A stretch of DNA of 64,000 nt from assembly GCA_013335095.1 (NCBI GenBank), contig JAAXWF010000003.1:5960-69959 (forward strand), read 5' to 3'. Both the position numbers and the translations under genes were made by a program. This document shows positions 1 to 40,892 of this stretch, piece after piece. How positions within the stretch are numbered: the first letter of the stretch is position 1; every line of letters begins with the position of its first letter. Origin of the DNA: a candidate division WWE3 bacterium (GTDB lineage Bacteria > Patescibacteriota > 4484-211 > GCA-002791395). Below the pieces are notes generated by a model. The model was not told where the DNA came from. It did not search any database and saw nothing but the letters and a program-made list of their open reading frames with translations.

Positions 1-1970
1 GCGCTGTAGCCAGGCACCCCGCGGTCGACCACCCGGGTGTCCACGATGATGTCGTGGTTCTTCGGATGGCGCTGCGTATAGGTGACTTTGACGTCGAACC
101 CGGCCTCGCTAAAGGCGCGGGGGATGACGATCACCTGGTGCTCGTTACGCAGCGGCACGTTGTACACCGGCGTCTCAGACGGGTTGCCGTCCGCGTCGAT
201 GTACTTGAACGCGAAGTCCGCGCTAAAGCTTGGGCCGCTCTCGGGGTTGCAGTGCATGCTGCCCCCGATGATCTCAATGACGTACCATTTGGCGATGTTG
301 CCGTCCTTGTTGACGGGCACCGCCCAGTCGAGCTGGCCATTCTGGACGTTGTACGGCCAGAAGTAGCGATTGTAGCAATCGCTACAAAGAGCCACGTCCA
401 GGCGCGGGTCCTGGCGGACTACCTCGGGCGTTGCCGACGGGGTCGGGGTCAGCTCTGTGCTGCCTCCGCAGTCCTCCGAGCCGCTGCCCGAGATGTCGCG
501 GGCAATGCCGTCATCGCCCGTCACCGTGCCGGTCCAGGAGAAGCTCGTCATCCCGACGAGCGTCCTTTCCCAGGGCAGGCTAACTACCCCCGAGCTCGTG
601 TTGAGGCTCAGGGTCGCCGTGATTGTGCCGGTGGCGTCTGTTGCCGTGACCGTCCCGGTCAGGCTGACGCCCTGCTCGATGGTCGCGCCGTAGACCTTAC
701 ACGTCGCGGTGATCTTACCGCTCCCCTGGTTGGGGGTCGACGTGCGGGTCGGGGTGGGCGTATTCGTCGGCGTGCTGGTCTCGGTGGGGGTGCCACCGCA
801 GACCAGATCCTTCTGCCCGACGACCTGTCGGGCGTTCCCCTGAAGCGGGGAGAAGGTTAGGTTCCACTCGATGTGGTGGGTGCTATTCAACGCCGTGGTG
901 AACGGCGTGTGATAGTCCCTCTCCTCATCGCCAGCGGTCTCGTTGACGGTGGCAACAATGTCGCCGTTGCTGGTGACGTTGCCGGTCAGCGTGCCGTTGC
1001 GGACTTTACCGAACAGTTCGGTGCAGTTCGCGTCGGCGGTCGCATTATCCGTCAGCGTGACGGTCGTCGCAGTCGGCGTATTCGTCGGCGTGGGCGTGTT
1101 GGTTGCCGTAGCCGTCGCTGTGGCCGGGGTGAAGCAGGGGTTGTGGACGTTGTACCAGTGGTACTCCGCCCGCTTGCCCCCCTTGGTCAGGGTGTCGAAC
1201 GCGGTGAACGTGATTTCACTCCAGACTGCCACGTCGGGCAGCTGGCTTTTCAGGATCTCCCACGTCCACGTATCCGTATTGAGCTCTTTGTGGAGCTCGT
1301 CGGTATTCCCGCTTACGGCCAGGAAGCCGTGCGGGTCGACCTCGCCATTCAGCACGAGACACACATCCGGTCCGGGCCCGGGGCGAAGCTCGCCGAAAAC
1401 GGGCCAGGCATCCATCAGCGTGGACGTCATGTTCACCAGCTGCTCGCCGTTGATGGCGAGCGAGAGGTGGACGACGTCCCCGTCGGACAGGCGGTTCAGC
1501 TTCTGGCTAAACGGCTTGTAACCGACGGAAACCGTCGCGGGCTTGAAGGTTATCGGCGTGCGGGCAAACTCGTTGCCCGTAGCCGACTTGACCACCCAGA
1601 TCGTGCCAGACACCTCGTCGGTGTCCTGGCAGTCACTGATGCTGGTCACTTCGAGCTCGACGTGCCGATCCCTGAACAGCCGGAGCATCAGGCCGACCTG
1701 GCAGGTCGGCTCGATCGACTGCACGCTAGGCGTGTTGTCGGCCGGCTTGGCTGGCACGGGCTCGGTGATCGTGATCGGCGTCTCTTTCGCAATCTCGTGC
1801 CCGCCCTGGGCGTAGGTGTTGGCCGCCGCAATGGCGGTCGCCTTCTGGGCGAGTTGGCCCGAGATGGGCAGGTTGGTGCCGCTGAGGGCCGCCGACGCGA
1901 AGGTGAAGATGGCCATCAAGGCCATCAGGGCCGCCATGATGGCGGCAAAGCGAGTTGATCGCTGCTTCAT
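1..1970 (-). CDS. large secreted protein with T/P-rich linkers; C-terminal part lies beyond the window start (partial)
   Basis: Hand translation of the minus strand from the ATG at 1968-1970 (AAGGAGA Shine-Dalgarno 8 nt upstream) gives MKQRSTRFAAIMAALMALMAIFTFASAALSG, a signal peptide, and an open frame to position 1. Contains TPT-type linkers (ATATATNTPTPTNTPTATT; GGTPTETSTPTNTPTPTRTSTP). Absent from the ORF track because its stop is outside the window. Plus-strand ORFs 54-860 and 873-1958 are its antisense shadow. GC ~65%. Confidence 0.55.
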   Translation of the reverse strand, partial: MKQRSTRFAAIMAALMALMAIFTFASAALSGTNLPISGQLAQKATAIAAANTYAQGGHEIAKETPITITEPVPAKPADNTPSVQSIEPTCQVGLMLRLFRDRHVELEVTSISDCQDTDEVSGTIWVVKSATGNEFARTPITFKPATVSVGYKPFSQKLNRLSDGDVVHLSLAINGEQLVNMTSTLMDAWPVFGELRPGPGPDVCLVLNGEVDPHGFLAVSGNTDELHKELNTDTWTWEILKSQLPDVAVWSEITFTAFDTLTKGGKRAEYHWYNVHNPCFTPATATATATNTPTPTNTPTATTVTLTDNATADANCTELFGKVRNGTLTGNVTSNGDIVATVNETAGDEERDYHTPFTTALNSTHHIEWNLTFSPLQGNARQVVGQKDLVCGGTPTETSTPTNTPTPTRTSTPNQGSGKITATCKVYGATIEQGVSLTGTVTATDATGTITATLSLNTSSGVVSLPWERTLVGMTSFSWTGTVTGDDGIARDISGSGSEDCGGSTELTPTPSATPEVVRQDPRLDVALCSDCYNRYFWPYNVQNGQLDWAVPVNKDGNIAKWYVIEIIGGSMHCNPESGPSFSADFAFKYIDADGNPSETPVYNVPLRNEHQVIVIPRAFSEAGFDVKVTYTQRHPKNHDIIVDTRVVDRGVPGYS

Positions 1971-2388
1971 ACGAGCACGTCTCCTTGAAGTCTAAGCTAT
2001 TCCGACTTGTGAACGTACGACGCGAGACTTTCCTGCATTTCTGCAGGTGGACGAATAGCCTTATAGGCATTCTCCTTTTTCAACGCTTAACATAGCGGAC
2101 TCAGGGTGTGTACCACTGAGTGATTCACACCCATAAGCCCACTATGAAAGGTTGATAAACATAGATTGGATTGTTAAGGTGCATGCTTGGCATGAAAGCC
2201 TAAGCAACACACAAAACAGTGAGTTATCCAGTCGGTTTATTTACCTTCTGGATAGCTTTATTATACCCTATAGTAACCAAGGTTCAAGTCCTATATTAAA
2301 TGATATGTGCTGTAATATCGCGTGGAAATAATAACACATTGTATATAGATTTATCGGAGTGAGTAAAATCGTTATACAACGTTTATGC

Positions 2389-2424
2389 AAAAAAAGGGGG
2401 TGATGGCTTGATAGCCACCACCCC
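2389..2424 (-). terminator. rho-independent terminator downstream of the sortase gene
   Basis: A 12-bp stem with 11 of 12 pairs (ggggtgatggct / agccaccacccc), then a run of 7 T on the minus strand. Lies 68 nt after the sortase stop codon. Confidence 0.6.
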
Positions 2425-2492
2425 GGTTTATGGGTACCACCTCATTGTGGTTAATTTCCGCCTTCTGGGGCGGTATCCGTTTTTGTCGTCAC

Positions 2493-3230
2493 TTAGTGAA
2501 CAATCACCGCATCCACCACCCGCGTGTGCGTGTAGTGGTCGATGATCCCGTTGACGATGATGGCGGTGCCATCACACGTCACAAGTCGTGCATCAACTCC
2601 CGACACCGGGGTGTTGAGCTCAGCGTACTGCTGGCCTCCACCCGGAATCTGGGTCGATGCAATAACTTGCAGGACTGTGGGGCAGTCCTGATCCCGCTGC
2701 CAGTATTCGAACTGATCACCCACCGCGAGGCGAGCGATCTTGCCGAACGGCGCGGGAATCGCCGCGGCATTCCGATACCGAGCGACATGACCACGGAACA
2801 CGGTGGTCGTGCCGCTACCGAAAATCCCGGTCGTAATGTCGATCATCGCGTCATGGCGAGGCGTCGACATCACCGTCCCGGTTACCACCCATGTGGCGTG
2901 GCCGAGACTCGGGAACGAGAGCATCCCGACGACATTGTCGGGAATCTCGCTCCACCTGACTGGGTTTACACATCGCGGAGCTACTGCGGCCTCGGGGACG
3001 TCCTTGTCCTCCTTGGTCGTGGTAACTATCTCCGGTACCGGGAGGTTTGATCTCCAAGGTTCCGGAGTGATTTGGGGCGGGAGGCCCGGGTCTGCCTGCA
3101 GTCCGTCTGCGGCAGGAACCGAAACCGCCGTTGGCGTAGTGTCGTTACCAAGGAGTGCTGGACGCCCGAAGGCGAGAACCAGCACCCCAAGGATGACACA
3201 CGCCAGCGCGAGGCCGCGCTGGATGTTCAT
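2493..3230 (-). CDS. sortase-family transpeptidase (class D/E-like)
   Basis: N-terminal signal/anchor MNIQRGLALACVILGVLVLAFG. The TVFRGHVARYRNAAAIPAPFGKIARLAVGDQFEY segment resembles the sortase GH(R)..APF..L..GD motif. RLVTCDG resembles the TLxTC catalytic-Cys motif, with an Arg downstream (THTRVV). The ATG abuts the stop of the upstream substrate-like gene (TAAATG). GC ~62%. Confidence 0.55.
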   Translation of the reverse strand: MNIQRGLALACVILGVLVLAFGRPALLGNDTTPTAVSVPAADGLQADPGLPPQITPEPWRSNLPVPEIVTTTKEDKDVPEAAVAPRCVNPVRWSEIPDNVVGMLSFPSLGHATWVVTGTVMSTPRHDAMIDITTGIFGSGTTTVFRGHVARYRNAAAIPAPFGKIARLAVGDQFEYWQRDQDCPTVLQVIASTQIPGGGQQYAELNTPVSGVDARLVTCDGTAIIVNGIIDHYTHTRVVDAVIVH

Positions 3231-5021
3231 TTACTCCACCTCCACCTGGGAGGTGACCTGCGTCTTGCGGCGTGGCCACATCAGGACGATGGCGAAGGTG
3301 AACAGGATCAGCGCTAAGAGCTCGCGCATGCCGGTAATCGATTTCGACGGCACCCTTGCCGCCTCAACCCGAACGAGGAGCTTCATCGCATCCTCGTCGG
3401 ACAGCTCTCCGGCTTCCGGTGTCCCCGTCAGTGTGGGCGGGGGAGTGTTGGTAGCCGTGGGAGTGTTGGTGTTGGTCGGTGTCGTGGTGACCGTAGCCGT
3501 ATTGACCGGCGTATTGGTCACCGTGGGCGTGTTGGAAGGTGTCGCCGTGTTGGTCGGCGTCGTGGTTGTACCTGTGTTTGTCGTGCTCGACGGAGTCGGG
3601 GTGGGCGGGACCTTGCGGGTCCAGCTCCCCTCGTTCGAGGAGCAATCATTAACCAGGTTAACTCGGACGCCGATGGTCGGCGCACCGTCCACTACCGGCC
3701 AGGTGTTAACTGGCGGATAGTTGATTACGATGCGCTCGCTGTTCGACGCAAGCCTTCCGGTGGCAACCATCGGGCTGCCGTCCGAAAGGGTGAGAGTGAC
3801 ACCTGTACCAGGGTTGTAGAAGGTCACGGTGTACGTGACCGGCGCGCCCTGGGTTAGGGTCACTACGTCGGTGTCATTGCCGTCCCGGCTCGCCGCGTAC
3901 TGCGGCTGAATCACCGGGCAGGCGACAGCGGTCGCTGTGGTCGATGTCGTCGTTGGCGTATTCGTGTTGGTCGGCGTATTCGTCGGCGTTGACGTCCCGG
4001 TGGGCGTCGGAGTCGACGTATTGGTCGGCGTGCTAGTCTGGGTCTGAGTTGGGGTGAGTGTGGGCAGAGGTGCGCTATAGCAGTCTGCGCCACCGCTACC
4101 GTTCCCTCCATTGGCCCAGTTGATCCAGGCGTCGAACGCCTTCAGTTGGCCGATTCTCTGCCAGCGCCACCAGGTGGCGCCATCCAGTACCACGGTGGTA
4201 AAGTCCGCGGCGCTGAGTGACAGCGTCTGGGTGACGTCGTCGGTACCGACCACGAGCGCCTGAGCCGAAACTGGCTCTAGGCTGCTCCACAACGACAGTG
4301 TCGCGGTGAGGGTTGTTGTCCCCCCAACGATACCTGTCTCTGTGGTGCACGCTGCCCGTACCGTACCCGCCACCGGAGTGGCGGTGTTGGTCGGGGTCGA
4401 CGTGTTGGTCGGCGTATCGGTGATCGTCGGTGTAAGCGTGGCCGGACGCGGTGTGCGCGTCGGCCGAGGCGTGTTGGTCGGTGTGTTGGTTGGCGACGGA
4501 CCGGACGTTCCGGTCGGCGTCGCTGTCCGAGTTGGCCGCGGCGTGTTGGTGGGACCCTGCGTGAGGGTCGCCGACGCCGTTGCCGTCTCGGTCGGAATGC
4601 TGGTGTCGGTCGGCGTGGCGGTGTTGGCCGGTGTCGAGCTGGGAAGCGGGGTCGGGCTGGGGTTTGAGGCCCCACACCGAGCGCCACCGCTCCAGTTCGA
4701 GAGGCCGATCTGTTCCGGGTAGACAATCGTCGCGGTGAAGCTGACGATGTCGCCGGTGAGCGACCAGTTGCCGACGTCGGCGGTCACCGTCTCGCTGTGC
4801 CCGTCGGCGTAGACCACCACGATGGTGGCGGTGCCGACCGGGTTCGAGCTAAGGCTGACCGTCGAGTTCCCCGGCTGATAGGCGCACTGGGCGCCGCGAA
4901 CCGGGTTGACGGACGACTGGCCAAAGGCCAGGTGGATCGACGCGGTAAACATAACCAGGGCCAAGATGCCCCGGATCCAGCTTTTCGCCGCAAGGCGGCG
5001 AAGGTTGTTGAGCGTAATCAC
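3231..5021 (-). CDS. secreted Thr/Pro-repeat cell-surface protein with C-terminal hydrophobic anchor and basic tail (putative sortase substrate)
   Basis: GTG start with AAAGGAGAG Shine-Dalgarno. Signal peptide MITLNNLRRLAAKSWIRGILALVMFTASIHLAFG. Long PTNTPT/TPTxT linker repeats. C-terminus ...VPSKSITGMRELLALILFTFAIVLMWPRRKTQ (hydrophobic stretch then RRK) resembles a cell-wall sorting signal but lacks a canonical LPXTG. GC ~65%. Confidence 0.6.
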   Translation of the reverse strand: MITLNNLRRLAAKSWIRGILALVMFTASIHLAFGQSSVNPVRGAQCAYQPGNSTVSLSSNPVGTATIVVVYADGHSETVTADVGNWSLTGDIVSFTATIVYPEQIGLSNWSGGARCGASNPSPTPLPSSTPANTATPTDTSIPTETATASATLTQGPTNTPRPTRTATPTGTSGPSPTNTPTNTPRPTRTPRPATLTPTITDTPTNTSTPTNTATPVAGTVRAACTTETGIVGGTTTLTATLSLWSSLEPVSAQALVVGTDDVTQTLSLSAADFTTVVLDGATWWRWQRIGQLKAFDAWINWANGGNGSGGADCYSAPLPTLTPTQTQTSTPTNTSTPTPTGTSTPTNTPTNTNTPTTTSTTATAVACPVIQPQYAASRDGNDTDVVTLTQGAPVTYTVTFYNPGTGVTLTLSDGSPMVATGRLASNSERIVINYPPVNTWPVVDGAPTIGVRVNLVNDCSSNEGSWTRKVPPTPTPSSTTNTGTTTTPTNTATPSNTPTVTNTPVNTATVTTTPTNTNTPTATNTPPPTLTGTPEAGELSDEDAMKLLVRVEAARVPSKSITGMRELLALILFTFAIVLMWPRRKTQVTSQVEVE

Positions 5022-5260
5022 TGCGCTCTCCTTTTTGCTGTTGACCGATCATCCGAATCGAACTTGGACGAATTACGATGTGTAATCGATAAGTTTTCCT
5101 TTCACTAAGTGGCTTGTTAATGTGCGACCGGCTTAGGGCCGGACACACCCTGATTCTGCGAATCAGGAGATAGCCACCTGCGTGGTTATCTAGTTTAATT
5201 GTATTACTATAGGATTGACGATCAAGCTGTTTAGATCGATATTATGGGTAAAATACTATG

Positions 5261-5974
5261 TTAGCGATTGATATAGTTACCATATTTATAGGTAACTGCG
5301 TTGGCCTGTTTAAAGCGTCCCAGCGCGAAAAATACTGATAGTTTAAGATAAAGTAAAAAAGTGTTATACACACCGTCGCGTCGAAATCTTCGATCTGAAA
5401 CATGGACAGAAGCTTTCAGTGTGCGATATCTGTGTCTTTTGCCTACTCGTCTGATGAATTCAATGTCTTCGTACAGCATTGCGGTATCAAAGCCGGTGTG
5501 GTCATGGAAAATGTCTCGGTAAATAATGAATGCCATTCCCGCACCCGAAGGGACGATCTTTGAAGTATGTTTAAAAATGGTGTTAAAGATCTGATAGATA
5601 CGTTTTATGGTTAGACTGGTGGTCAGCGGTATGAATGTTGGGCAGGCAGCATGTAAGTGTCTTTTTGTAAATTCATCTATAAGTTCTTGGTACTGTTTGG
5701 GAGATACTCGACTATCTGCATCGAGGAATAACAAGATCTCTCCAGTGGCGATGTCTGCCCCTTTGTTTCGTTGTCGAGCTATACCTGGCTGCTCTTGGAG
5801 CATGACGACTGAAGGATAAGATAAAAGAAGCTCTCGCGAGCGATCGGTTGATCCGCCGTCTACAACTATTATTTCATGAATATGATCAGTTGACGCTAGT
5901 AAATCATCAAGCAAGTCGGGAAAGACATGTTCTTCATTTAATACCGGAATAATTATCGATACCGTAGGTTTCAT
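5261..5974 (-). CDS. family-2 glycosyltransferase (carotenoid-cluster associated, CrtQ/CruC-like by context)
   Basis: MKPTVSIIIPVLNEE...IIVVDGGSTDRS and FLDADS motifs are typical of GT2. The gene overlaps the upstream UbiA gene by 4 nt. Confidence 0.65.
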   Translation of the reverse strand: MKPTVSIIIPVLNEEHVFPDLLDDLLASTDHIHEIIVVDGGSTDRSRELLLSYPSVVMLQEQPGIARQRNKGADIATGEILLFLDADSRVSPKQYQELIDEFTKRHLHAACPTFIPLTTSLTIKRIYQIFNTIFKHTSKIVPSGAGMAFIIYRDIFHDHTGFDTAMLYEDIEFIRRVGKRHRYRTLKASVHVSDRRFRRDGVYNTFLLYLKLSVFFALGRFKQANAVTYKYGNYINR

Positions 5975-6822
5975 ATTGGTTTCGTGCTAATAATAACAAA
6001 AAATAATATTGCGCCGATACTACTGTTTATATAGGGAAAAAGTTGATATGTGCGGAAAATATATTCTACTCGTTGAAATAACAACCAAAACATAGTAATT
6101 GGATAGACCCACATGAAGATACTAAAAGGGAAAAAGTCGGGTTTGAATGAGAGAAACAGGGCTGGAGCTAACCATAATAATCCGCAGGTTAATAGTGCTA
6201 TTCGAGGTCCAAGCAATACGGCTGAAGTATCTAGGTGCGCGGATTTATCGGCCTGAATATCTGGTATTGCTGAAAATAGATGCATAGCCATTGTCCAGCA
6301 GCAACAAACAGCAATTATTACACCGGGAACCGTGTTGTCAGAGGATAATGTATAGCCAAAGAACCCCGGTAGCGCATACAATATATTTGATAAAGAATCG
6401 AACACTGGCGTCGCCTTAAAGCGTACCGGTGGTGCGCTATATAATACACTTAGCATATTAAATCCAACCATCAAGAACTGAAGTTGCCTTGATGGAGCGA
6501 TCAGCGCGATTCCTAATCCGACAACACCGCTAATGATACTCATCATTTTAATAGTTTTGTGATGCGATTCAGATACCCGCTTTTCGTAGCTGAGTTTCTT
6601 GGGATTACGTGAGTCCGTATCTGAGTCATATAAATCATTAACTCCATATAAAAGACAATTTGCTACGATAAGAAAATAGATTGCATAAGCAAAAAAGTAA
6701 TTAGTAAAGAAATCGGTCCAATGACTAATTCCGCATGCATATCCTATTAAGTATGGCCCGATTAAATACATCCAGAAGCGCGGACGTGAAAAGTTAAGTA
6801 AAGCGATAATCCTATGTATCAT
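5971..6822 (-). CDS. UbiA-family prenyltransferase (possible lycopene elongase CrtEb/LyeJ-like)
   Basis: Polytopic membrane protein with RPRFW near the N-terminus and the NDLYDSDTD (NDxxDxxxD) motif plus a second DIQAD motif. Sits in the carotenoid cluster. Confidence 0.65.
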   Translation of the reverse strand: MIHRIIALLNFSRPRFWMYLIGPYLIGYACGISHWTDFFTNYFFAYAIYFLIVANCLLYGVNDLYDSDTDSRNPKKLSYEKRVSESHHKTIKMMSIISGVVGLGIALIAPSRQLQFLMVGFNMLSVLYSAPPVRFKATPVFDSLSNILYALPGFFGYTLSSDNTVPGVIIAVCCCWTMAMHLFSAIPDIQADKSAHLDTSAVLLGPRIALLTCGLLWLAPALFLSFKPDFFPFSIFMWVYPITMFWLLFQRVEYIFRTYQLFPYINSSIGAILFFVIISTKPI

Positions 6823-6871
6823 ATCGTCATTATATCTTTGCGGTTAGAAACAAAACTGTTAAAATCGCGGT

Positions 6872-7948
6872 ATGGCAGAGAATGTCGGCTTATCGTTTCT
6901 TCAGGATTACGCGGTGAAAACTGACCCATTGTTTGAAAAATACCTCCATCAAAAAATTGAGCAAGCCCAGGAAATCAGCAAGATACCAGGCGAATTACTT
7001 CGTCGTTTCTTAGAAATGGGACGTAAAGGTAAGAAAATACGGGGAGCATTAACTGTTTTGGGTTATCAGGCGGTCGGAGGACGTGATCTCGAAGCTATTT
7101 TTGATGCTAGTTTATTTTTAGAGCTTTTCCATGCCGGAGTCTTAGTACATGATGACATTATGGATCAGGATGATTTGAGACGGGGATTACCGACGCTTCA
7201 TGTCCAATTTGCAGAAGTCGGTACAGCATTACATGTTCATCCGAATCCCTCGCATTATGGCTATTCTATGGCAGTAAACGCGGGAGATGCTGCTTTTTAT
7301 CTCTCGTGGGAAAAACTGATGCAAAGTCATTTTGATCCAGATCGATTAATCGACGTTGGGCAAATCTACGCTGATTACGTCATTCGAGTCGTACATGGAC
7401 AAGTGCTTGATATTACCGACTCATCGATGGGAAGTATTACTCAGGAGGACGTGATGAAGGTTCGACAATATAAGACCGTTGAATATACTGGTGTGCTCCC
7501 TCTACTCGTTGGCGCAGCATTCGCTGGACCGGTATCGAAACCTCTTCATGATGCGATTCAACAGTATGGGAATGCACTAGGCTGGGCGTTTCAAATTCAG
7601 GATGATCTACTCGGGATCTTTGGTGATACCGATACGATGGGCAAACCTACTGGATCGGATATCCGTGAAGGTAAACAAACCCTACTAGTGCTACACGTGA
7701 TGGAACATGGTAATAAAGACCAGAAGGCTTTTTTACGACATGTTTTGGGCAATCAATCAATCACGCCGGCAGAGATAGATCAAACGCTCGAATTGTTTAA
7801 ACAGACCGGAGCGTATGATGTGGTGATTAAGCGTGGTTGGGATTATGTTAAGCAGGGAGCTGACGTTATACCTCACATAACTTCGGATGCTAAGATCCAG
7901 GAGATATTGAATGGATTGATTAACTACATGATGGAACGGGTCAAGTAG
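6872..7948 (+). CDS. crtE: polyprenyl (geranylgeranyl) diphosphate synthase
   Basis: First aspartate-rich motif LVHDDIMDQDD and second FQIQDDLLG, typical of trans-isoprenyl diphosphate synthases. Confidence 0.8.
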   Translation: MAENVGLSFLQDYAVKTDPLFEKYLHQKIEQAQEISKIPGELLRRFLEMGRKGKKIRGALTVLGYQAVGGRDLEAIFDASLFLELFHAGVLVHDDIMDQDDLRRGLPTLHVQFAEVGTALHVHPNPSHYGYSMAVNAGDAAFYLSWEKLMQSHFDPDRLIDVGQIYADYVIRVVHGQVLDITDSSMGSITQEDVMKVRQYKTVEYTGVLPLLVGAAFAGPVSKPLHDAIQQYGNALGWAFQIQDDLLGIFGDTDTMGKPTGSDIREGKQTLLVLHVMEHGNKDQKAFLRHVLGNQSITPAEIDQTLELFKQTGAYDVVIKRGWDYVKQGADVIPHITSDAKIQEILNGLINYMMERVK

Positions 7949-8784
7949 TTTTGTATTCCCTTACTTAAAATTCGAGTAGGAGAAGGTTTTATCTTTTTGA
8001 CAAAAACAATCAGGGGATCTTTGTAAATTTGATCGGCTGTCCAGCGGTACATATCATTTGCGGTTTGGATTGGACCCTGATATCTATTCGGAATATAGGT
8101 GAATCCCGTACGTGCTTTCTCTTCCCATGACCAATACAGTTCTATTTGTTTTTTTATACATGAGACAAAAGCTTCTTTATGTCGTGAGGTGTGCTCGTAC
8201 GATAAATCGGTAAGAGAAAATTCATCAAGCTGTTCTTGAGGAATATACTGACGACCAAAAGAATTATCTTCAGTAATATCTCGAATGAAGTTAATATATT
8301 GCATCGATTTTCCAAGTAATTGGGCCGTCGAATAGCTTTCTTCTGGCAATTTCATCATTTTTGCCATCATTAACCCGATCACTTCAGCTGATCCATACAT
8401 GTACATATCTAATTGTTCAAGTGTCTCATATTTTTTTATGGTTAAATCTGCTTCCATTGCGGCTATAAATGCATCCGGCCAGTCATAGGGGAATTGGTGC
8501 TTTATTGATAGCGCGTGGAATGATCGGATTACTTCGGACGAGCTGGGCTTGCCATTCCGATGTTCATAATATTCGTATTTAAATTGATTAAATACATTTT
8601 TCTGCTGCGGAATGGTGTCTACAAAGTTATCCACCGTACGCACAAAACTGTACAACACAAATACGTCATCTCGTAGCAATGGTGGGAAAAAAATGCTACT
8701 AAAAAAATATGTTCGGCTTCCGTTAAAAAAAATTCGACTGAGATTTGCACTAATCATATTTTTGGGCGATTTGATCTGAAACAA
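7924..8784 (-). CDS. crtB: phytoene (or dehydrosqualene) synthase
   Basis: Squalene/phytoene synthase family signature YMYGSAEVIGLMM. Arranged as crtI-crtB in tandem. Confidence 0.75.
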   Translation of the reverse strand: MFQIKSPKNMISANLSRIFFNGSRTYFFSSIFFPPLLRDDVFVLYSFVRTVDNFVDTIPQQKNVFNQFKYEYYEHRNGKPSSSEVIRSFHALSIKHQFPYDWPDAFIAAMEADLTIKKYETLEQLDMYMYGSAEVIGLMMAKMMKLPEESYSTAQLLGKSMQYINFIRDITEDNSFGRQYIPQEQLDEFSLTDLSYEHTSRHKEAFVSCIKKQIELYWSWEEKARTGFTYIPNRYQGPIQTANDMYRWTADQIYKDPLIVFVKKIKPSPTRILSKGIQNYLTRSIM

Positions 8785-10225
8785 TCTCTGAAGAAATCAG
8801 TGTAATCGGTACCCCTATCCCAGGATGAGTGTATTGACCGGTATAAAATAGATTTCCAACCTTATGACTTTGATGATGTGGACGAAAAACTGCCGTCTGA
8901 AACATCGTATGGCTGATTCCCAGTGCAGTACCTTTAAATGCGTTGTAATAGCTTATATAGTCGTTATGAGCAAACGATTGTTCTACTACAATGGCATCTC
9001 TAATGGTTGTTTGGAGTTTTTGCTCTAGATGGTCCAATATTTGTTTACGAAATGATTGACGGATCTCTGGTGTATCGGTAAGTCCCGATGCTACAGGAAC
9101 TAAGATAAATACGTTTTCACCATCTGCAGGGGCTACTGACGGATCGGTTTTAGATGGAACCGATACGTAGTATGAAGGCGAGGTAGGCCAGCTCGGATTT
9201 TCAAAGATTGCGTCAAAGTGTTTAATCCAATCCCGATCTATAAAAATATTATGATGTTCAAGACCAGGTATCTTTTTGTTTAGGCCCAAATAGAGTATGA
9301 ATGCTGATGGTGCCACCGTCCTTTTTTGCCAGTATGATTCGGGGTATGTCTGGTATTCTGGTGGAAGAAGTTTCGTTTCGGCATGATGATAATCTGCGTT
9401 CATCACGATAATATCTCCGTGGTACTCATTATTTTTCGTTTTCACACCCACAGCATTTTTATCTTTAATTATTATTGATGTTACTGGTTCATTGAGGATA
9501 AATTTTGTTCCGAATGATTCAGCTAAATTTTGGATACCTTTTACAACCGCCCCATAACCACCCATGGGATAATATACTCCTTGAGTAAAATCTACATGTG
9601 AAATTAATGAATACAAAGCAGGAGTGTTCTTTGGTGCTCCGCCAAGAAAGACAATACTATATTGCAATAGTTGTCGTAGTTTCTCATTTTCAATAAATCG
9701 TTTTGTGAATCGATCCAAATTTTCAAATAACCGTAGTTTTGTACCTTCAAGTATGAGGCGCTTGTCAAAAAGATCACTAAGGTAACGATAGTCTCGGTAC
9801 AAAAAAGTATTAAGGGCAACATTATATTTATACTCAGCATCGGCTAGATATTTTTTTAATTTAATATCGCCGTCTTTCTCATATTTTTTAAATATTTCCA
9901 AGTTTTTTCCGATATCCGGACTTACATCGATACTATCGTCATCACCAAAAAATGCCCGATATGATGGATCTAGTTTTACGAGCTTGTAGAAGTCGGTGGG
10001 CTTTTTATTAAAACGCGAGAAAAAATGTTCAAAGACTTCAGGCATAAGATACCAAGATGGTCCCATATCAAATGAGTAACCATCTATTTTAAGGATACCT
10101 GCCCTACCTCCAACCTGGTCGTTTTTTTCGATAACAGTGACGTCAAAGCCGTCTCGACTGAGCGACGCAGCTGCTGATAATCCACCGAATCCTGCACCGA
10201 CGATAATTACTTTTTTCTGTTTCAT
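8750..10225 (-). CDS. crtI: phytoene desaturase (FAD-dependent)
   Basis: N-terminal Rossmann motif VIIVGAGFGGLSAAASL...EKNDQVGGRAG. 491 aa. C-terminal region is CrtI-like. Confidence 0.8.
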   Translation of the reverse strand: MKQKKVIIVGAGFGGLSAAASLSRDGFDVTVIEKNDQVGGRAGILKIDGYSFDMGPSWYLMPEVFEHFFSRFNKKPTDFYKLVKLDPSYRAFFGDDDSIDVSPDIGKNLEIFKKYEKDGDIKLKKYLADAEYKYNVALNTFLYRDYRYLSDLFDKRLILEGTKLRLFENLDRFTKRFIENEKLRQLLQYSIVFLGGAPKNTPALYSLISHVDFTQGVYYPMGGYGAVVKGIQNLAESFGTKFILNEPVTSIIIKDKNAVGVKTKNNEYHGDIIVMNADYHHAETKLLPPEYQTYPESYWQKRTVAPSAFILYLGLNKKIPGLEHHNIFIDRDWIKHFDAIFENPSWPTSPSYYVSVPSKTDPSVAPADGENVFILVPVASGLTDTPEIRQSFRKQILDHLEQKLQTTIRDAIVVEQSFAHNDYISYYNAFKGTALGISHTMFQTAVFRPHHQSHKVGNLFYTGQYTHPGIGVPITLISSEIVSDQIAQKYD

Positions 10226-40334: not shown

Positions 40335-40892
40335 ATGCAAAGAAAGATTAAAAATAACTCAGTATTATTCGCAACCATAAGCCTTCTATCAACTGTTTTT
40401 TATATTAATTCGGCAAATCTCGTACATGCACAAGATACAGTAGATGTTCCAATCGTATTTGAATCATCTGATCCTATTACTGCTGCTGATTTTAGTGTCG
40501 AAGTTAACGGTGGTACATTAATTTCACTAAAATGTGGTGGCGATCATTTCCAATCAATTGATACAAGCATGCAGAATAAGTGTATTGTATTTAATCCATC
40601 AGGTGCGACGAGTGGTACGCTTGGTACAGCTACTGTTAGAAGTACGAATGGCGGAAAAGCAACCGTAACCCCTAGTGGAACGTTTAGTACAGCCGAAGGC
40701 GTTGAACCATCTCACTCAACGATCCGCGGAACAGACACTGCAAATGTTAATACAAATACCAATACTCAAGATCCAGTACGCGACAGTCAAGCGATTTATA
40801 TGTTCATCGTAGTTGCGTTAGTATTGGTGGTTTTAGCCATCGTGGCTGCTTACTTCTTTTTGCACAAAAAGGAATCTTCATCGACTCTGTAA
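40335..40892 (+). CDS. secreted protein: signal peptide, conserved two-Cys module, N/T-rich linker, C-terminal TM anchor
   Basis: Module VPIVFESSDPITAADFSVEVNGGTLISLKCGGDHF...CIVFNPSGATSGTLGTATV. C-terminus IYMFIVVALVLVVLAIVAAYFFLHKKE. Confidence 0.7.
   Translation: MQRKIKNNSVLFATISLLSTVFYINSANLVHAQDTVDVPIVFESSDPITAADFSVEVNGGTLISLKCGGDHFQSIDTSMQNKCIVFNPSGATSGTLGTATVRSTNGGKATVTPSGTFSTAEGVEPSHSTIRGTDTANVNTNTNTQDPVRDSQAIYMFIVVALVLVVLAIVAAYFFLHKKESSSTL

What the first reader, a model, noticed from the sequence alone, without database searches (positions are those of the whole stretch)
2493..5021. Translationally coupled surface protein and sortase pair with a non-canonical C-terminal sorting signal and its own terminator
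The substrate-like gene ends TAA directly abutting the ATG of the sortase-family gene (TAAATG at 3228-3233). A strong hairpin plus a 7-T run follows the sortase. The 596-aa protein is mostly PTNTPT-type linker with two globular regions and ends VPSKSITGMRELLALILFTFAIVLMWPRRK. This is a hydrophobic domain with a basic tail and no LPXTG or LAXTG. The nearest motifs are SITG, and LTGTP about 35 residues upstream. That points to a dedicated sortase recognising an unusual motif, or to a different sorting mechanism.
Basis: partly seen in the sequence, partly recalled or inferred. Interest (0 to 1): 0.55.

Follow-up and report, generated by a model that had tools for sequence, protein, structure and literature searches.

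The report
Orphan sortase and surface-protein operon
A two-gene operon in a tiny-genome WWE3 (CPR) bacterium encodes a secreted modular surface protein and a very divergent cell-wall-anchoring enzyme (sortase); it sits in a GC-rich stretch of apparently foreign DNA, and the anchoring signal is not the usual LPXTG and could not be identified.

Summary
Both genes lie on the minus strand: a 596-aa gene (3231-5021) and a 245-aa gene (2493-3230). They are joined by TAAATG, with a GGAGG ribosome-binding site inside the end of the first gene. A 12-bp hairpin plus seven T's follows.

The 245-aa protein has no Pfam match and only 12 bits to NCBIfam class F. It is nevertheless a sortase: hhalign gives 97% probability against Pfam-positive sortases, His148/Cys219/Arg237 are present, and an AlphaFold model (pLDDT 82) matches only sortases in the PDB.

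The 596-aa protein has a signal peptide, three Cys-bracketed modules, Thr/Pro linkers and a hydrophobic segment plus PRRK. It has no LPXTG-like motif and no homologues.

The pair is the first of two tandem modules of this kind. The second is a 915-aa protein plus a Pfam-positive 247-aa sortase. Both lie in a roughly 7-kb island with GC3 of 0.70-0.86, inside a 39% GC candidate division WWE3 genome. The nearest sortases are from Chloroflexota.

That the 596-aa protein is a sortase substrate is inferred from gene order only. The motif could not be derived, because all four proteins are singletons. Verdict: a new variant of a known kind, of moderate interest.

The parts
5198..5233 (-). Two overlapping sigma-70-like promoter matches upstream of the operon: TAAACA-16-TATAGT and TTGATC-16-TACAAT.
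   Evidence: These are consensus matches only (6 found in the region against 1.4 expected). They lie in a 42.7% GC spacer.
5022..5197 (-). Putative 5' leader with three consecutive short hairpins.
   Evidence: minimum free energy -55.9 kcal/mol, z = -3.29, 0 of 200 shuffles fold as well. No Rfam family reaches its gathering score. Function unknown.
5028..5033 (-). Shine-Dalgarno AAGGAG, 6 nt before the GTG start of the 596-aa gene.
   Evidence: Read from the sequence.
3231..5021 (-). Gene for the 596-aa secreted modular protein (NCBI NTV31210.1, annotated as hypothetical protein, WWE3).
   Evidence: 64.4% GC, GC3 0.786. No Pfam, NCBIfam, PHROG or PDB match.
4917..5021 (-). Sec-type signal peptide, aa 1-35: basic n-region, hydrophobic core GILALVMFTASIHLAF, then G|Q.
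   Evidence: Read from the translation. Inferred; no signal-peptide predictor was available.
4668..4916 (-). Globular module 1 (aa 36-118), bracketed by C46 and C116.
4377..4667 (-). Thr/Pro/Asn-rich linker 1 (aa 119-215).
   Evidence: degenerate 6/12/18-nt periodic repeats.
4077..4376 (-). Globular module 2 (aa 216-315), bracketed by C225 and C314.
3936..4076 (-). Linker 2 (aa 316-362).
3618..3935 (-). Globular module 3 (aa 363-468), bracketed by C368 and C460.
3432..3617 (-). Linker 3 (aa 469-530), in the position of a wall-spanning segment.
3423..3434 (-). TLTG (aa 530-533) at the end of linker 3. Candidate cleavage motif number 2, 35 residues before the hydrophobic segment.
   Evidence: Sequence. 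Speculative.
3330..3341 (-). SITG (aa 561-564), three residues before the hydrophobic segment. Candidate cleavage motif number 1, in the position LPXTG usually occupies.
   Evidence: Sequence. The 915-aa neighbour has DAG-MID-L in the same register, giving a shared [TA]GM.[DE]L. With n = 2 this is not statistically significant.
3264..3320 (-). Hydrophobic segment LLALILFTFAIVLMW (aa 568-582) followed by PRRK (aa 583-586). Ten further residues, TQVTSQVEVE, follow to the stop.
   Evidence: mean Kyte-Doolittle hydropathy 2.78 over 15 residues.
3228..3243 (-). Coupling junction: SD GGAGGTGGAG (3243..3234) inside the last codons of gene 1, then TAA (3233..3231) abutting ATG (3230..3228).
2493..3230 (-). 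Gene for the 245-aa divergent sortase. NCBI annotates only its last 125 aa, as hypothetical protein NTV31209.1.
3168..3215 (-). N-terminal membrane anchor of the sortase (aa 6-21, GLALACVILGVLVLAF).
   Evidence: Translation. Predicted as a helix, residues 2-21, in the model.
2946..3167 (-). Pro-rich stalk (aa 22-95) between the anchor and the catalytic domain.
   Evidence: Translation. Low pLDDT.
2496..2945 (-). Sortase beta-barrel catalytic domain (aa 96-245). His148 is at 2787-2789, Cys219 of LVTC at 2574-2576, and Arg237 at 2520-2522.
   Evidence: Alignments. hhalign gives 97.2% probability and E = 2.9e-11. The AF2 model has pLDDT 81.8 and pTM 0.80. The top 50 Foldseek hits are all sortases, with TM 0.59-0.69.
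2389..2424 (-). Intrinsic terminator: 12-bp stem, 4-nt loop and a T7 run.
1..1970 (-). 5' two-thirds of the next gene (915 aa, NTV31208.1), the surface protein of a second module. Its sortase (247 aa, NTV31207.1) lies beyond the window edge, at L001 4596-5339.

Best explanation
This is a self-contained two-gene operon: a promoter-like region, a structured leader, gene 1, gene 2 and a terminator.

Gene 1 encodes a Sec-exported 596-aa protein. It is built from three small disulphide-bracketed modules strung on Thr/Pro-rich linkers. It ends in a short hydrophobic segment and a basic stop-transfer (PRRK).

Gene 2 is translationally coupled through TAAATG and an internal Shine-Dalgarno sequence. 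It encodes a membrane-anchored, very divergent sortase: an N-terminal anchor, a stalk of about 70 residues, and a beta-barrel carrying His148, Cys219 and Arg237.

The most likely mechanism runs as follows. The hydrophobic tail holds the exported protein in the membrane. The co-expressed sortase cleaves it at a non-LPXTG site, forming a thioester on Cys219. The enzyme then transfers the protein to a cell-wall precursor amine, displaying the protein on the cell surface. Candidate sites are SIT|G564, three residues before the hydrophobic segment, or TLT|G533 at the end of the last linker.

The operon is the first of two tandem surface-protein/sortase modules. They lie in a roughly 7-kb block of GC-rich genes that a 39% GC candidate division WWE3 bacterium most probably acquired from a GC-rich donor, with Chloroflexota-type sortases as the nearest relatives.

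Shown: operon anatomy, sortase fold and catalytic residues, absence of canonical motifs, foreign codon composition, and the second module. Inferred: the substrate relationship, the cleavage site, wall attachment and the identity of the donor.
For: Operon anatomy.

Sortase identity:
- A full HMMER scan of 1.8e9 representative proteins found only three true relatives (E = 7e-5 to 8e-4, 28-33% identity). All three are Pfam PF04203 sortases.
- hhalign against 18 Pfam-positive sortases gives 97.2% probability and E = 2.9e-11.
- His148 and Cys219 are invariant in the alignments; Arg237, in HTR, sits within about two residues of the relatives' HR in those alignments, so its assignment is by position.
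- The AF2 model has pLDDT 81.8. The 50 listed Foldseek PDB hits (of 117 with E <= 0.001) are all sortases.

Substrate-like tail: a 15-residue hydrophobic segment plus PRRK, with no canonical motif.

Dedicated-pair logic: the same arrangement recurs immediately downstream. A 915-aa Thr/Pro-linker protein with a hydrophobic tail and RRRG is followed by a 247-aa sortase that scores 31.6 bits against Pfam's 26.6 cut-off. That sortase relates to the same Chloroflexota clade.

Foreign origin:
- Island genes have GC3 of 0.70-0.86, against 0.25-0.39 for host genes.
- NCBI names the contig's proteins candidate division WWE3.
- The nearest sortases are from Chloroflexaceae, Oscillochloris and Kallotenue, in loci of 59-64% GC.

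WWE3 genomes are reported to encode sortases and predicted sorted proteins (PMC3812714).
Against: - No experiment and no comparative evidence links the tail to the sortase.
- Pfam does not recognise the enzyme, and it is far below every NCBIfam class cut-off.
- The two tails in the island do not align significantly: 486 of 500 shuffles score at least as well. The shared [TA]GM.[DE]L is therefore only a lead.
- The nearest Chloroflexota sortases are solitary genes with no substrate-like neighbours, so they say nothing about the motif.
- The AF2 model depends on an alignment made of sortases. The single-sequence model failed, with pLDDT 36.
- The island's spacers are host-like in GC (42-43%) rather than donor-like (54-62%). 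Simple block transfer does not predict this.
Confidence: 0.55

Rival explanations
1. The 596-aa protein is simply a C-terminally membrane-anchored surface protein that is never cleaved. The adjacent sortase would then act on other proteins that carry a conventional signal elsewhere in the genome.
For: No recognisable sortase motif is present. The tail carries 14 residues after the hydrophobic segment, which is somewhat long for a sorting signal. The tails of the two island proteins are not significantly similar. WWE3 genomes are reported to have LPXTG proteins (PMC3812714).
Against: Translational coupling through TAAATG and an internal SD implies co-expression. The same gene order occurs twice in tandem, with two different sortases. 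The 15-residue hydrophobic segment is short for a permanent membrane helix. The island sortases are foreign and would be unlikely to be tuned to host substrates.
Confidence: 0.25
2. The GC-rich block does not belong to the WWE3 genome. It would be an assembly or binning chimera that joins a Chloroflexota-like fragment to a CPR contig.
For: GC3 jumps from about 0.3 to about 0.8 exactly at the block. All four proteins are singletons seen on one NCBI contig and one Logan contig, and the two may derive from the same reads.
Against: Host-composition DNA flanks the block on both sides within single contigs: groEL/groES on one side and the carotenoid cluster on the other. The Logan contig is identical to the window over 3562 bp. 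GC-rich and AT-rich segments alternate four times, exactly at gene borders, with host-like spacers inside the block. A chimera at one repeat would not produce that pattern.
Confidence: 0.1
3. The two sortases are pilus-type (class C-like) polymerases. They would join the 596-aa and 915-aa proteins into a covalent fibre rather than anchoring them singly.
For: The best structural matches are class C pilus sortases, with TM about 0.68. Two sortases and two large modular proteins sit in one cluster, which resembles a pilus island.
Against: Class A, D and E sortases score almost equally well. No YPKN-type pilin motif or LPXTG is present. Neither sortase shows the C-terminal membrane anchor typical of class C. 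NCBIfam class C scores are nil for this protein.
Confidence: 0.1

Closest known systems
Chloroflexota clade of Pfam PF04203 sortases (for example the Kallotenue papyrolyticum sortase P0020, and Oscillochloris and Chloroflexaceae MAG sortases P0008 and P0011)
   Same: These are the only detectable sequence relatives, at 26-39% identity over the catalytic domain. They share the GHV-R-x6-(I/L)PAPF block after the catalytic His, the LV(S/T)C-G-x-x-I-x-x-G motif, and the closing Arg followed by a beta-strand. Their loci have a similar GC content, 59-64%.
   Different: The relatives appear to be lipoproteins: their N-termini end in ...SGC / ...AGC (read by eye as a lipobox, not tested), which the 245-aa protein lacks. 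They are solitary genes among unrelated genes, not coupled to a substrate. They pass Pfam's threshold, and this protein does not.
Class F sortases (NCBIfam NF033748; the characterised example is Propionibacterium acnes SrtF, which recognises LPXTG; cited in PMC13251363, where the physiological role of the class is stated to be unknown)
   Same: This is the best-scoring named class for the protein and for its relatives. Both have an N-terminal anchor.
   Different: The score is 12.1 bits against a cut-off of 166, so the protein is not a member by NCBI's criterion. The adjacent candidate substrate has no LPXTG.
Dedicated sortase-substrate gene pairs with non-LPXTG signals: class B SrtB/IsdC (NPQTN), class D (LPNTA), and class GN 'marine' sortase TIGR03784 with its single target (from general knowledge of these families)
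   Same: A sortase gene sits directly beside one candidate substrate that carries a hydrophobic segment, a basic tail and a non-LPXTG sequence. This is the same operating logic as those pairs.
   Different: The protein does not match any of those class models by sequence. The tail contains none of their motifs. The substrate is an orphan.
Class C pilus sortases (for example Streptococcus agalactiae SrtC1, PDB 3O0P and 4D7W)
   Same: These are the top structural neighbours of the predicted catalytic domain, with TM about 0.68, rmsd 2.8 A and E = 4e-9.
   Different: Sequence identity is 16-24%. No lid motif or C-terminal anchor was demonstrated. The neighbouring proteins have no pilin motifs.

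Membership tests
Sortase superfamily (Pfam PF04203 / peptidase C60) | Scores above Pfam's gathering threshold for PF04203. | tested here: not met
   No Pfam family is found even at E <= 1.
Sortase superfamily (Pfam PF04203 / peptidase C60) | Detectable homology to bona fide sortases. | tested here: met
   The only true hits among 1.8e9 representatives are three PF04203 proteins. hhalign against 18 PF04203 proteins gives 97.2% probability and E = 2.9e-11.
Sortase superfamily (Pfam PF04203 / peptidase C60) | Catalytic His, Cys (TLxTC-type motif) and Arg. | tested here: met
   His148 (GH) and Cys219 (RLVTC) are invariant columns. Arg237 (HTR followed by a beta-strand) aligns within 2 residues of the relatives' HR.
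Sortase superfamily (Pfam PF04203 / peptidase C60) | Eight-stranded beta-barrel sortase fold. | tested here: met
   The AF2 model has pLDDT 81.8 and pTM 0.80. The top 50 Foldseek PDB hits are all sortases, with TM 0.59-0.69. Caveat: the model was built from an alignment of sortases.
Sortase superfamily (Pfam PF04203 / peptidase C60) | Cys-dependent cleavage and transpeptidation of a sorting signal. | not testable with these tools
   This needs biochemistry.
Class F sortase (NF033748) | Whole-protein score of at least 166 bits. | tested here: not met
   12.1 bits, E = 0.11.
Class C (pilus) sortase | Class model match, a lid over the active site, a C-terminal anchor, and pilin substrates with LPXTG and YPKN. 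| tested here: not met
   There is no class C hit. No LPXTG-type motif occurs in the neighbouring proteins; a YPKN-type pilin motif and a C-terminal hydrophobic segment in the sortase were looked for by eye only (translations) and not seen. The lid was not assessable.
LPXTG-type cell-wall sorting signal (for the 596-aa protein) | LPXTG-like pentapeptide (LPXTG, LAXTG, NPXTN, LPXTA or [SP]PXTG). | tested here: not met
   The regex scan finds none in either the 596-aa or the 915-aa protein. The NCBIfam models do not hit the tails.
LPXTG-type cell-wall sorting signal (for the 596-aa protein) | C-terminal hydrophobic segment followed by basic residues, with an N-terminal signal peptide. | tested here: met
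   LLALILFTFAIVLMW followed by PRRK. The N-terminus resembles a signal peptide.
Other C-terminal sorting systems (PEP-CTERM/exosortase, GlyGly-CTERM/rhombosortase, PGF-CTERM/archaeosortase) | Tail matches a CTERM model and the cognate enzyme is nearby. | tested here: not met
   No NCBIfam hit is found for either tail at E <= 10. The adjacent enzymes are sortases. The rest of the genome was not examined.

The most novel reading that the evidence does not exclude
The two island sortases would define a new sortase lineage with a new, non-LPXTG recognition signal, possibly x-[TA]-G directly followed by M-x-[DE]-L and the hydrophobic segment. A host-dependent CPR bacterium would have acquired this lineage, together with its private substrates, from a GC-rich Chloroflexota-like donor as ready-made surface-display cassettes. 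The cassettes would since have been re-equipped with host-type promoters and terminators.
Probability: 0.25. Interest if true: 0.6.

Novelty: new variant of a known kind. Interest (0 to 1): 0.4.

Why it matters
If the pairing is functional, it adds a sortase specificity outside the LPXTG/LAXTG/NPXTN repertoire. That bears on how sortases read their signals, and it would offer orthogonal tools for sortase-mediated protein ligation.

It would also be a concrete case of a CPR bacterium importing complete cassettes, each combining a surface protein with its own anchoring enzyme. CPR bacteria have small genomes and are thought to live attached to other cells, so such cassettes could shape how they attach.

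On the practical side, the public annotation is incomplete. The sortase gene is truncated to 125 aa and labelled hypothetical. Motif-based LPXTG screens would miss both candidate substrates.

Tried and rejected
1. Direct family assignment. Pfam gave nothing, NCBIfam gave a sub-threshold class F hit only, phmmer against PDB gave nothing relevant, and PHROGs gave nothing for the pair.
2. Word-indexed homologue search with the sortase found no hits.
3. Single-sequence AlphaFold produced an unusable model, pLDDT 36.
4. Homologues of the 596-aa protein. A search with the linkers removed found only the protein itself, and the PDB sequence search found nothing.
5. Related loci. The 245-aa protein was searched in genome and metagenome contigs. 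The 247-aa sortase was searched in genomes, the 915-aa protein in metagenomes, and the sortase alignment in viral contigs. All were empty.
6. Deriving the motif from neighbours of the nearest sortases. Five Chloroflexota sortases (eight loci) were examined; five loci were scanned for sorting-signal-like tails and none was found near a sortase.
7. Aligning the two tails within the island. The alignment was not significant, so [TA]GM.[DE]L is kept only as a lead.
8. C-terminal sorting-domain models on the isolated tails gave no hit.
9. Signs of a mobile element at the island borders. No direct repeat of 11 nt or more was found; no integrase-like gene or tRNA was noticed among the listed ORFs and tRNA hits near the borders. 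The spacers match nothing elsewhere in the window.
10. Homology between modules of the 596-aa and 915-aa proteins gave only marginal matches, E >= 0.002.
Full report
**What is there**

The region 2389-5233 holds a compact minus-strand operon. ORF 3231..5021 (596 aa) starts at a GTG, with AAGGAG 6 nt upstream. ORF 2493..3230 (245 aa) starts at an ATG. The plus strand reads CATTTA at 3228-3233, so on the coding strand the TAA stop of the first gene abuts the ATG of the second. GGAGGTGGAG (3243..3234) lies inside the last codons of the first gene and provides a Shine-Dalgarno sequence for the second. This is the classic arrangement for translational coupling.

Downstream is a 12-bp stem with 8 G-C pairs at 2424..2397, followed by C and seven T's. 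The region folds with z = -4.56. Upstream, two overlapping sigma-70-like matches (5233..5198) precede a leader of about 175 nt. The leader contains three hairpins (z = -3.29) and matches no Rfam family.

- The protein has three Cys-bracketed globular modules, not two.
- The linkers make up about 35% of the protein, not most of it.
- Ten residues follow PRRK.

**Is the 245-aa protein a sortase?**

Direct profile tests fail. Pfam gives no hit at E <= 1. NCBIfam gives only class F at E = 0.11 and 12.1 bits against a cut-off of 166. phmmer against PDB gives nothing relevant, and a word-indexed search of 5.8e9 proteins gives nothing.

An exhaustive HMMER scan of 1.8e9 cluster representatives found the protein's own truncated NCBI version, one repeat-protein artefact, and three real hits at E = 7e-5 to 8e-4. 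All three real hits are Pfam PF04203 sortases. They are closest to class F but fall below its cut-off.

A search seeded with the resulting alignment returned 25 proteins. Apart from the query's own truncated NCBI version (P0001), all are PF04203-positive. Those that carry organism names are from Chloroflexaceae, Oscillochloris, Kallotenue and Streptomyces.

Against 18 of these, the 245-aa protein gives hhalign probability 97.2% and E = 2.9e-11. His148 (in GH) and Cys219 (in RLVTC) fall in invariant columns. Arg237 (in HTR, followed by a beta-strand) sits where sortases carry their catalytic Arg.

AlphaFold without an alignment failed, with pLDDT 36. With the 25-sequence alignment it gave pLDDT 81.8 and pTM 0.80 for residues 80-245. 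The 50 listed Foldseek matches in the PDB (117 had E <= 0.001) are all sortases, with TM 0.59-0.69. Class C sortases rank first, and classes A, D and E follow closely.

The N-terminus (GLALACVILGVLVLAF) is a membrane anchor, followed by a Pro-rich stalk of about 70 residues. I conclude with high confidence that this is a sortase-fold cysteine transpeptidase. It is too divergent for the curated models and cannot be assigned to classes A-F.

NCBI's annotation starts the gene at Met121 and calls it hypothetical (NTV31209.1). That start would delete the anchor and the first strands of the barrel. The coupled ATG at 3230 is the better start.

**The 596-aa protein**

Its layout is as follows:

| Residues | Feature |
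|---|---|
| 1-35 | Signal-peptide-like N-terminus |
| 36-118 | Module 1 (C46...C116) |
| 119-215 | Thr/Pro/Asn-rich linker 1 |
| 216-315 | Module 2 (C225...C314) |
| 316-362 | Linker 2 |
| 363-468 | Module 3 (C368...C460) |
| 469-530 | Linker 3 |
| 531-596 | C-terminal tail |

The tail reads ...PPPTLTGTPEAGELSDEDAMKLLVRVEAARVPSKSITGMRE-LLALILFTFAIVLMW-PRRK-TQVTSQVEVE.

No LPXTG, LAXTG, NPXTN, LPXTA or [SP]PXTG occurs anywhere in the protein. No NCBIfam C-terminal sorting model hits the tail. The protein has no Pfam, NCBIfam, PHROG or PDB match. With the linkers removed, a search found no homologue except the protein itself.

**Context changes the picture**

An exact-match lookup found an 8.4-kb Logan contig (SRR11449211). 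It is identical to the window over 3562 bp and extends past the window's left edge.

Directly after the terminator comes a second module:
- A 915-aa protein, whose first two-thirds occupy window 1970..1. It again has a signal peptide, Cys-bracketed modules, TPTPTNTPT linkers and a tail...SPACTAGDAGMID-LSLLWLLVVFPGLLACIPVFLHL-RRRGWFSVRKRTV. It has no canonical motif.
- A 247-aa sortase that passes Pfam, at 31.6 bits against a cut-off of 26.6. It relates to the same Chloroflexota clade, with hhalign probability 97.8%.

The two sortases are not detectably similar to each other by BLAST. A pattern of surface protein followed by its own sortase, occurring twice in a row, is the strongest available argument that the large proteins are the sortases' substrates.

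The two tails share [TA]-G-M-x-[DE]-L immediately before the hydrophobic segment (SITGMREL and GDAGMIDL). This is the position LPXTG normally occupies. With two sequences, and no significant tail alignment, it is a lead and not a result. TLTG533, at the end of the last linker, is an alternative candidate site.

**Origin**

NCBI names the proteins of this contig (260,013 bp) candidate division WWE3.

| Sequence class | GC | GC3 |
|---|---|---|
| Host genes in the window | 38-44% | 0.25-0.39 |
| Four island genes | 61-64% | 0.70-0.86 |

The block runs about 6.8 kb, from 5021 to the stop of the 247-aa gene. It lies between a host-composition carotenoid cluster and groES/groEL.

The nearest sortases lie in Chloroflexota loci of 59-64% GC. 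The PT(R/N)TPT linker style recurs in the N-terminal regions of those sortases. Horizontal acquisition from a GC-rich, Chloroflexota-like donor is the best reading.

An assembly chimera is unlikely. GC-rich and AT-rich segments alternate at gene borders, with host-like flanks on both sides of single contigs. Read-level confirmation was not possible.

One feature remains unexplained. The spacers inside and beside the island are 42-43% GC, like host intergenic DNA (38.6%). Chloroflexota intergenic DNA is 54-62%. No flanking repeat, integrase or tRNA marks the borders.

**Comparative motif derivation failed for lack of relatives**

All four island proteins are singletons at 90% identity among about 15e9 proteins. 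Scans of genome, metagenome and viral contigs found nothing. The nearest Chloroflexota sortases are solitary genes with no sorting-signal-like neighbours.

**Relation to what is known**

In operation, the pair resembles the dedicated sortase-substrate pairs of classes B, D and GN, which have a private substrate and a non-LPXTG signal. By sequence, it belongs to none of those classes.

Class F, its nearest named class, has one characterised member, which uses LPXTG, and its physiological role is unknown (PMC13251363). WWE3 genomes were reported to carry sortases and LPXTG-predicted proteins (PMC3812714), so the host envelope is compatible with sortase chemistry.

**Verdict**

The locus is a real, well-formed operon encoding a highly divergent sortase and an orphan modular surface protein that lacks any known sorting motif. 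It is one of two such modules in a foreign GC-rich island of a CPR genome.

Its central functional claim, a non-canonical sorting signal read by this sortase, remains inferred. My confidences are:
- About 0.9 that the enzyme is a sortase.
- About 0.5 that the 596-aa protein is its substrate through a non-LPXTG signal.
- About 0.8 that the island is horizontally acquired.

I rate the novelty as a new variant of a known kind, and the interest at 0.4.

Noticed in passing
window 1-5021, continuing to L001 5339: A block of about 6.8 kb holds four genes at 61-64% GC (GC3 0.70-0.86) inside a 39% GC WWE3 genome (GC3 0.25-0.39). This is probably horizontal acquisition from a Chloroflexota-like donor.
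   Followed up: partly
window 1971-2492 and 5022-5260: Spacers inside and beside the GC-rich block are 42-43% GC, like host intergenic DNA (38.6%). Intergenic DNA in the Chloroflexota loci that carry the nearest sortases is 54-62%. Donor-like ORFs therefore sit in host-like non-coding DNA. This is unexplained.
   Followed up: partly
window 1-1970 (-) and L001 1593-5339: A second surface-protein/sortase module: a 915-aa Thr/Pro-linker protein whose tail ends ...CTAGDAGMIDLSLLWLLVVFPGLLACIPVFLHLRRRG..., plus a 247-aa Pfam-positive sortase. In this module a 255-bp spacer separates the sortase from its partner, so they are not coupled.
   Followed up: partly
window 2493-3230 (-): The public annotation (NTV31209.1) starts this gene at Met121, giving 125 aa labelled 'hypothetical protein'. 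That start removes the membrane anchor and part of the sortase barrel.
   Followed up: yes
window 5261-10225: A host-composition gene cluster resembling glycosylated or elongated carotenoid synthesis: GT2 glycosyltransferase, UbiA prenyltransferase, polyprenyl synthetase, phytoene synthase and phytoene desaturase-like oxidase. This is unusual for a CPR bacterium with a reduced metabolism.
   Followed up: partly
window 5022-5197 (-): A leader of about 175 nt upstream of the 596-aa gene has three consecutive G+C-rich hairpins (z = -3.29). It has no Rfam match and its function is unknown.
   Followed up: partly
window 2095-2111 and 5143-5159: A 17-nt inverted match (88% complementary) links the upstream regions of the two modules. 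GATAGCCACC is also shared by the terminator hairpin (2410-2419) and a leader hairpin (5169-5178). Both may be chance.
   Followed up: no
L001 5482-5829: A 115-aa multi-pass membrane protein of intermediate GC (48.6%, GC3 0.52) lies directly after the second sortase. It has no family match. It may mark the edge of the island or be a fifth island gene.
   Followed up: no
L001 2772-3173 (aa 394-527 of the 915-aa protein): A weak match to phrog_15511 (unknown function, E = 1e-4). It is the only phage-family hit among the island proteins.
   Followed up: no
window 40335-40892 (+): A host-composition 185-aa ORF has a C-terminal hydrophobic anchor and a short basic tail (...IYMFIVVALVLVVLAIVAAYFFLHKKESSSTL). 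It has no Pfam match and no sortase motif.
   Followed up: no
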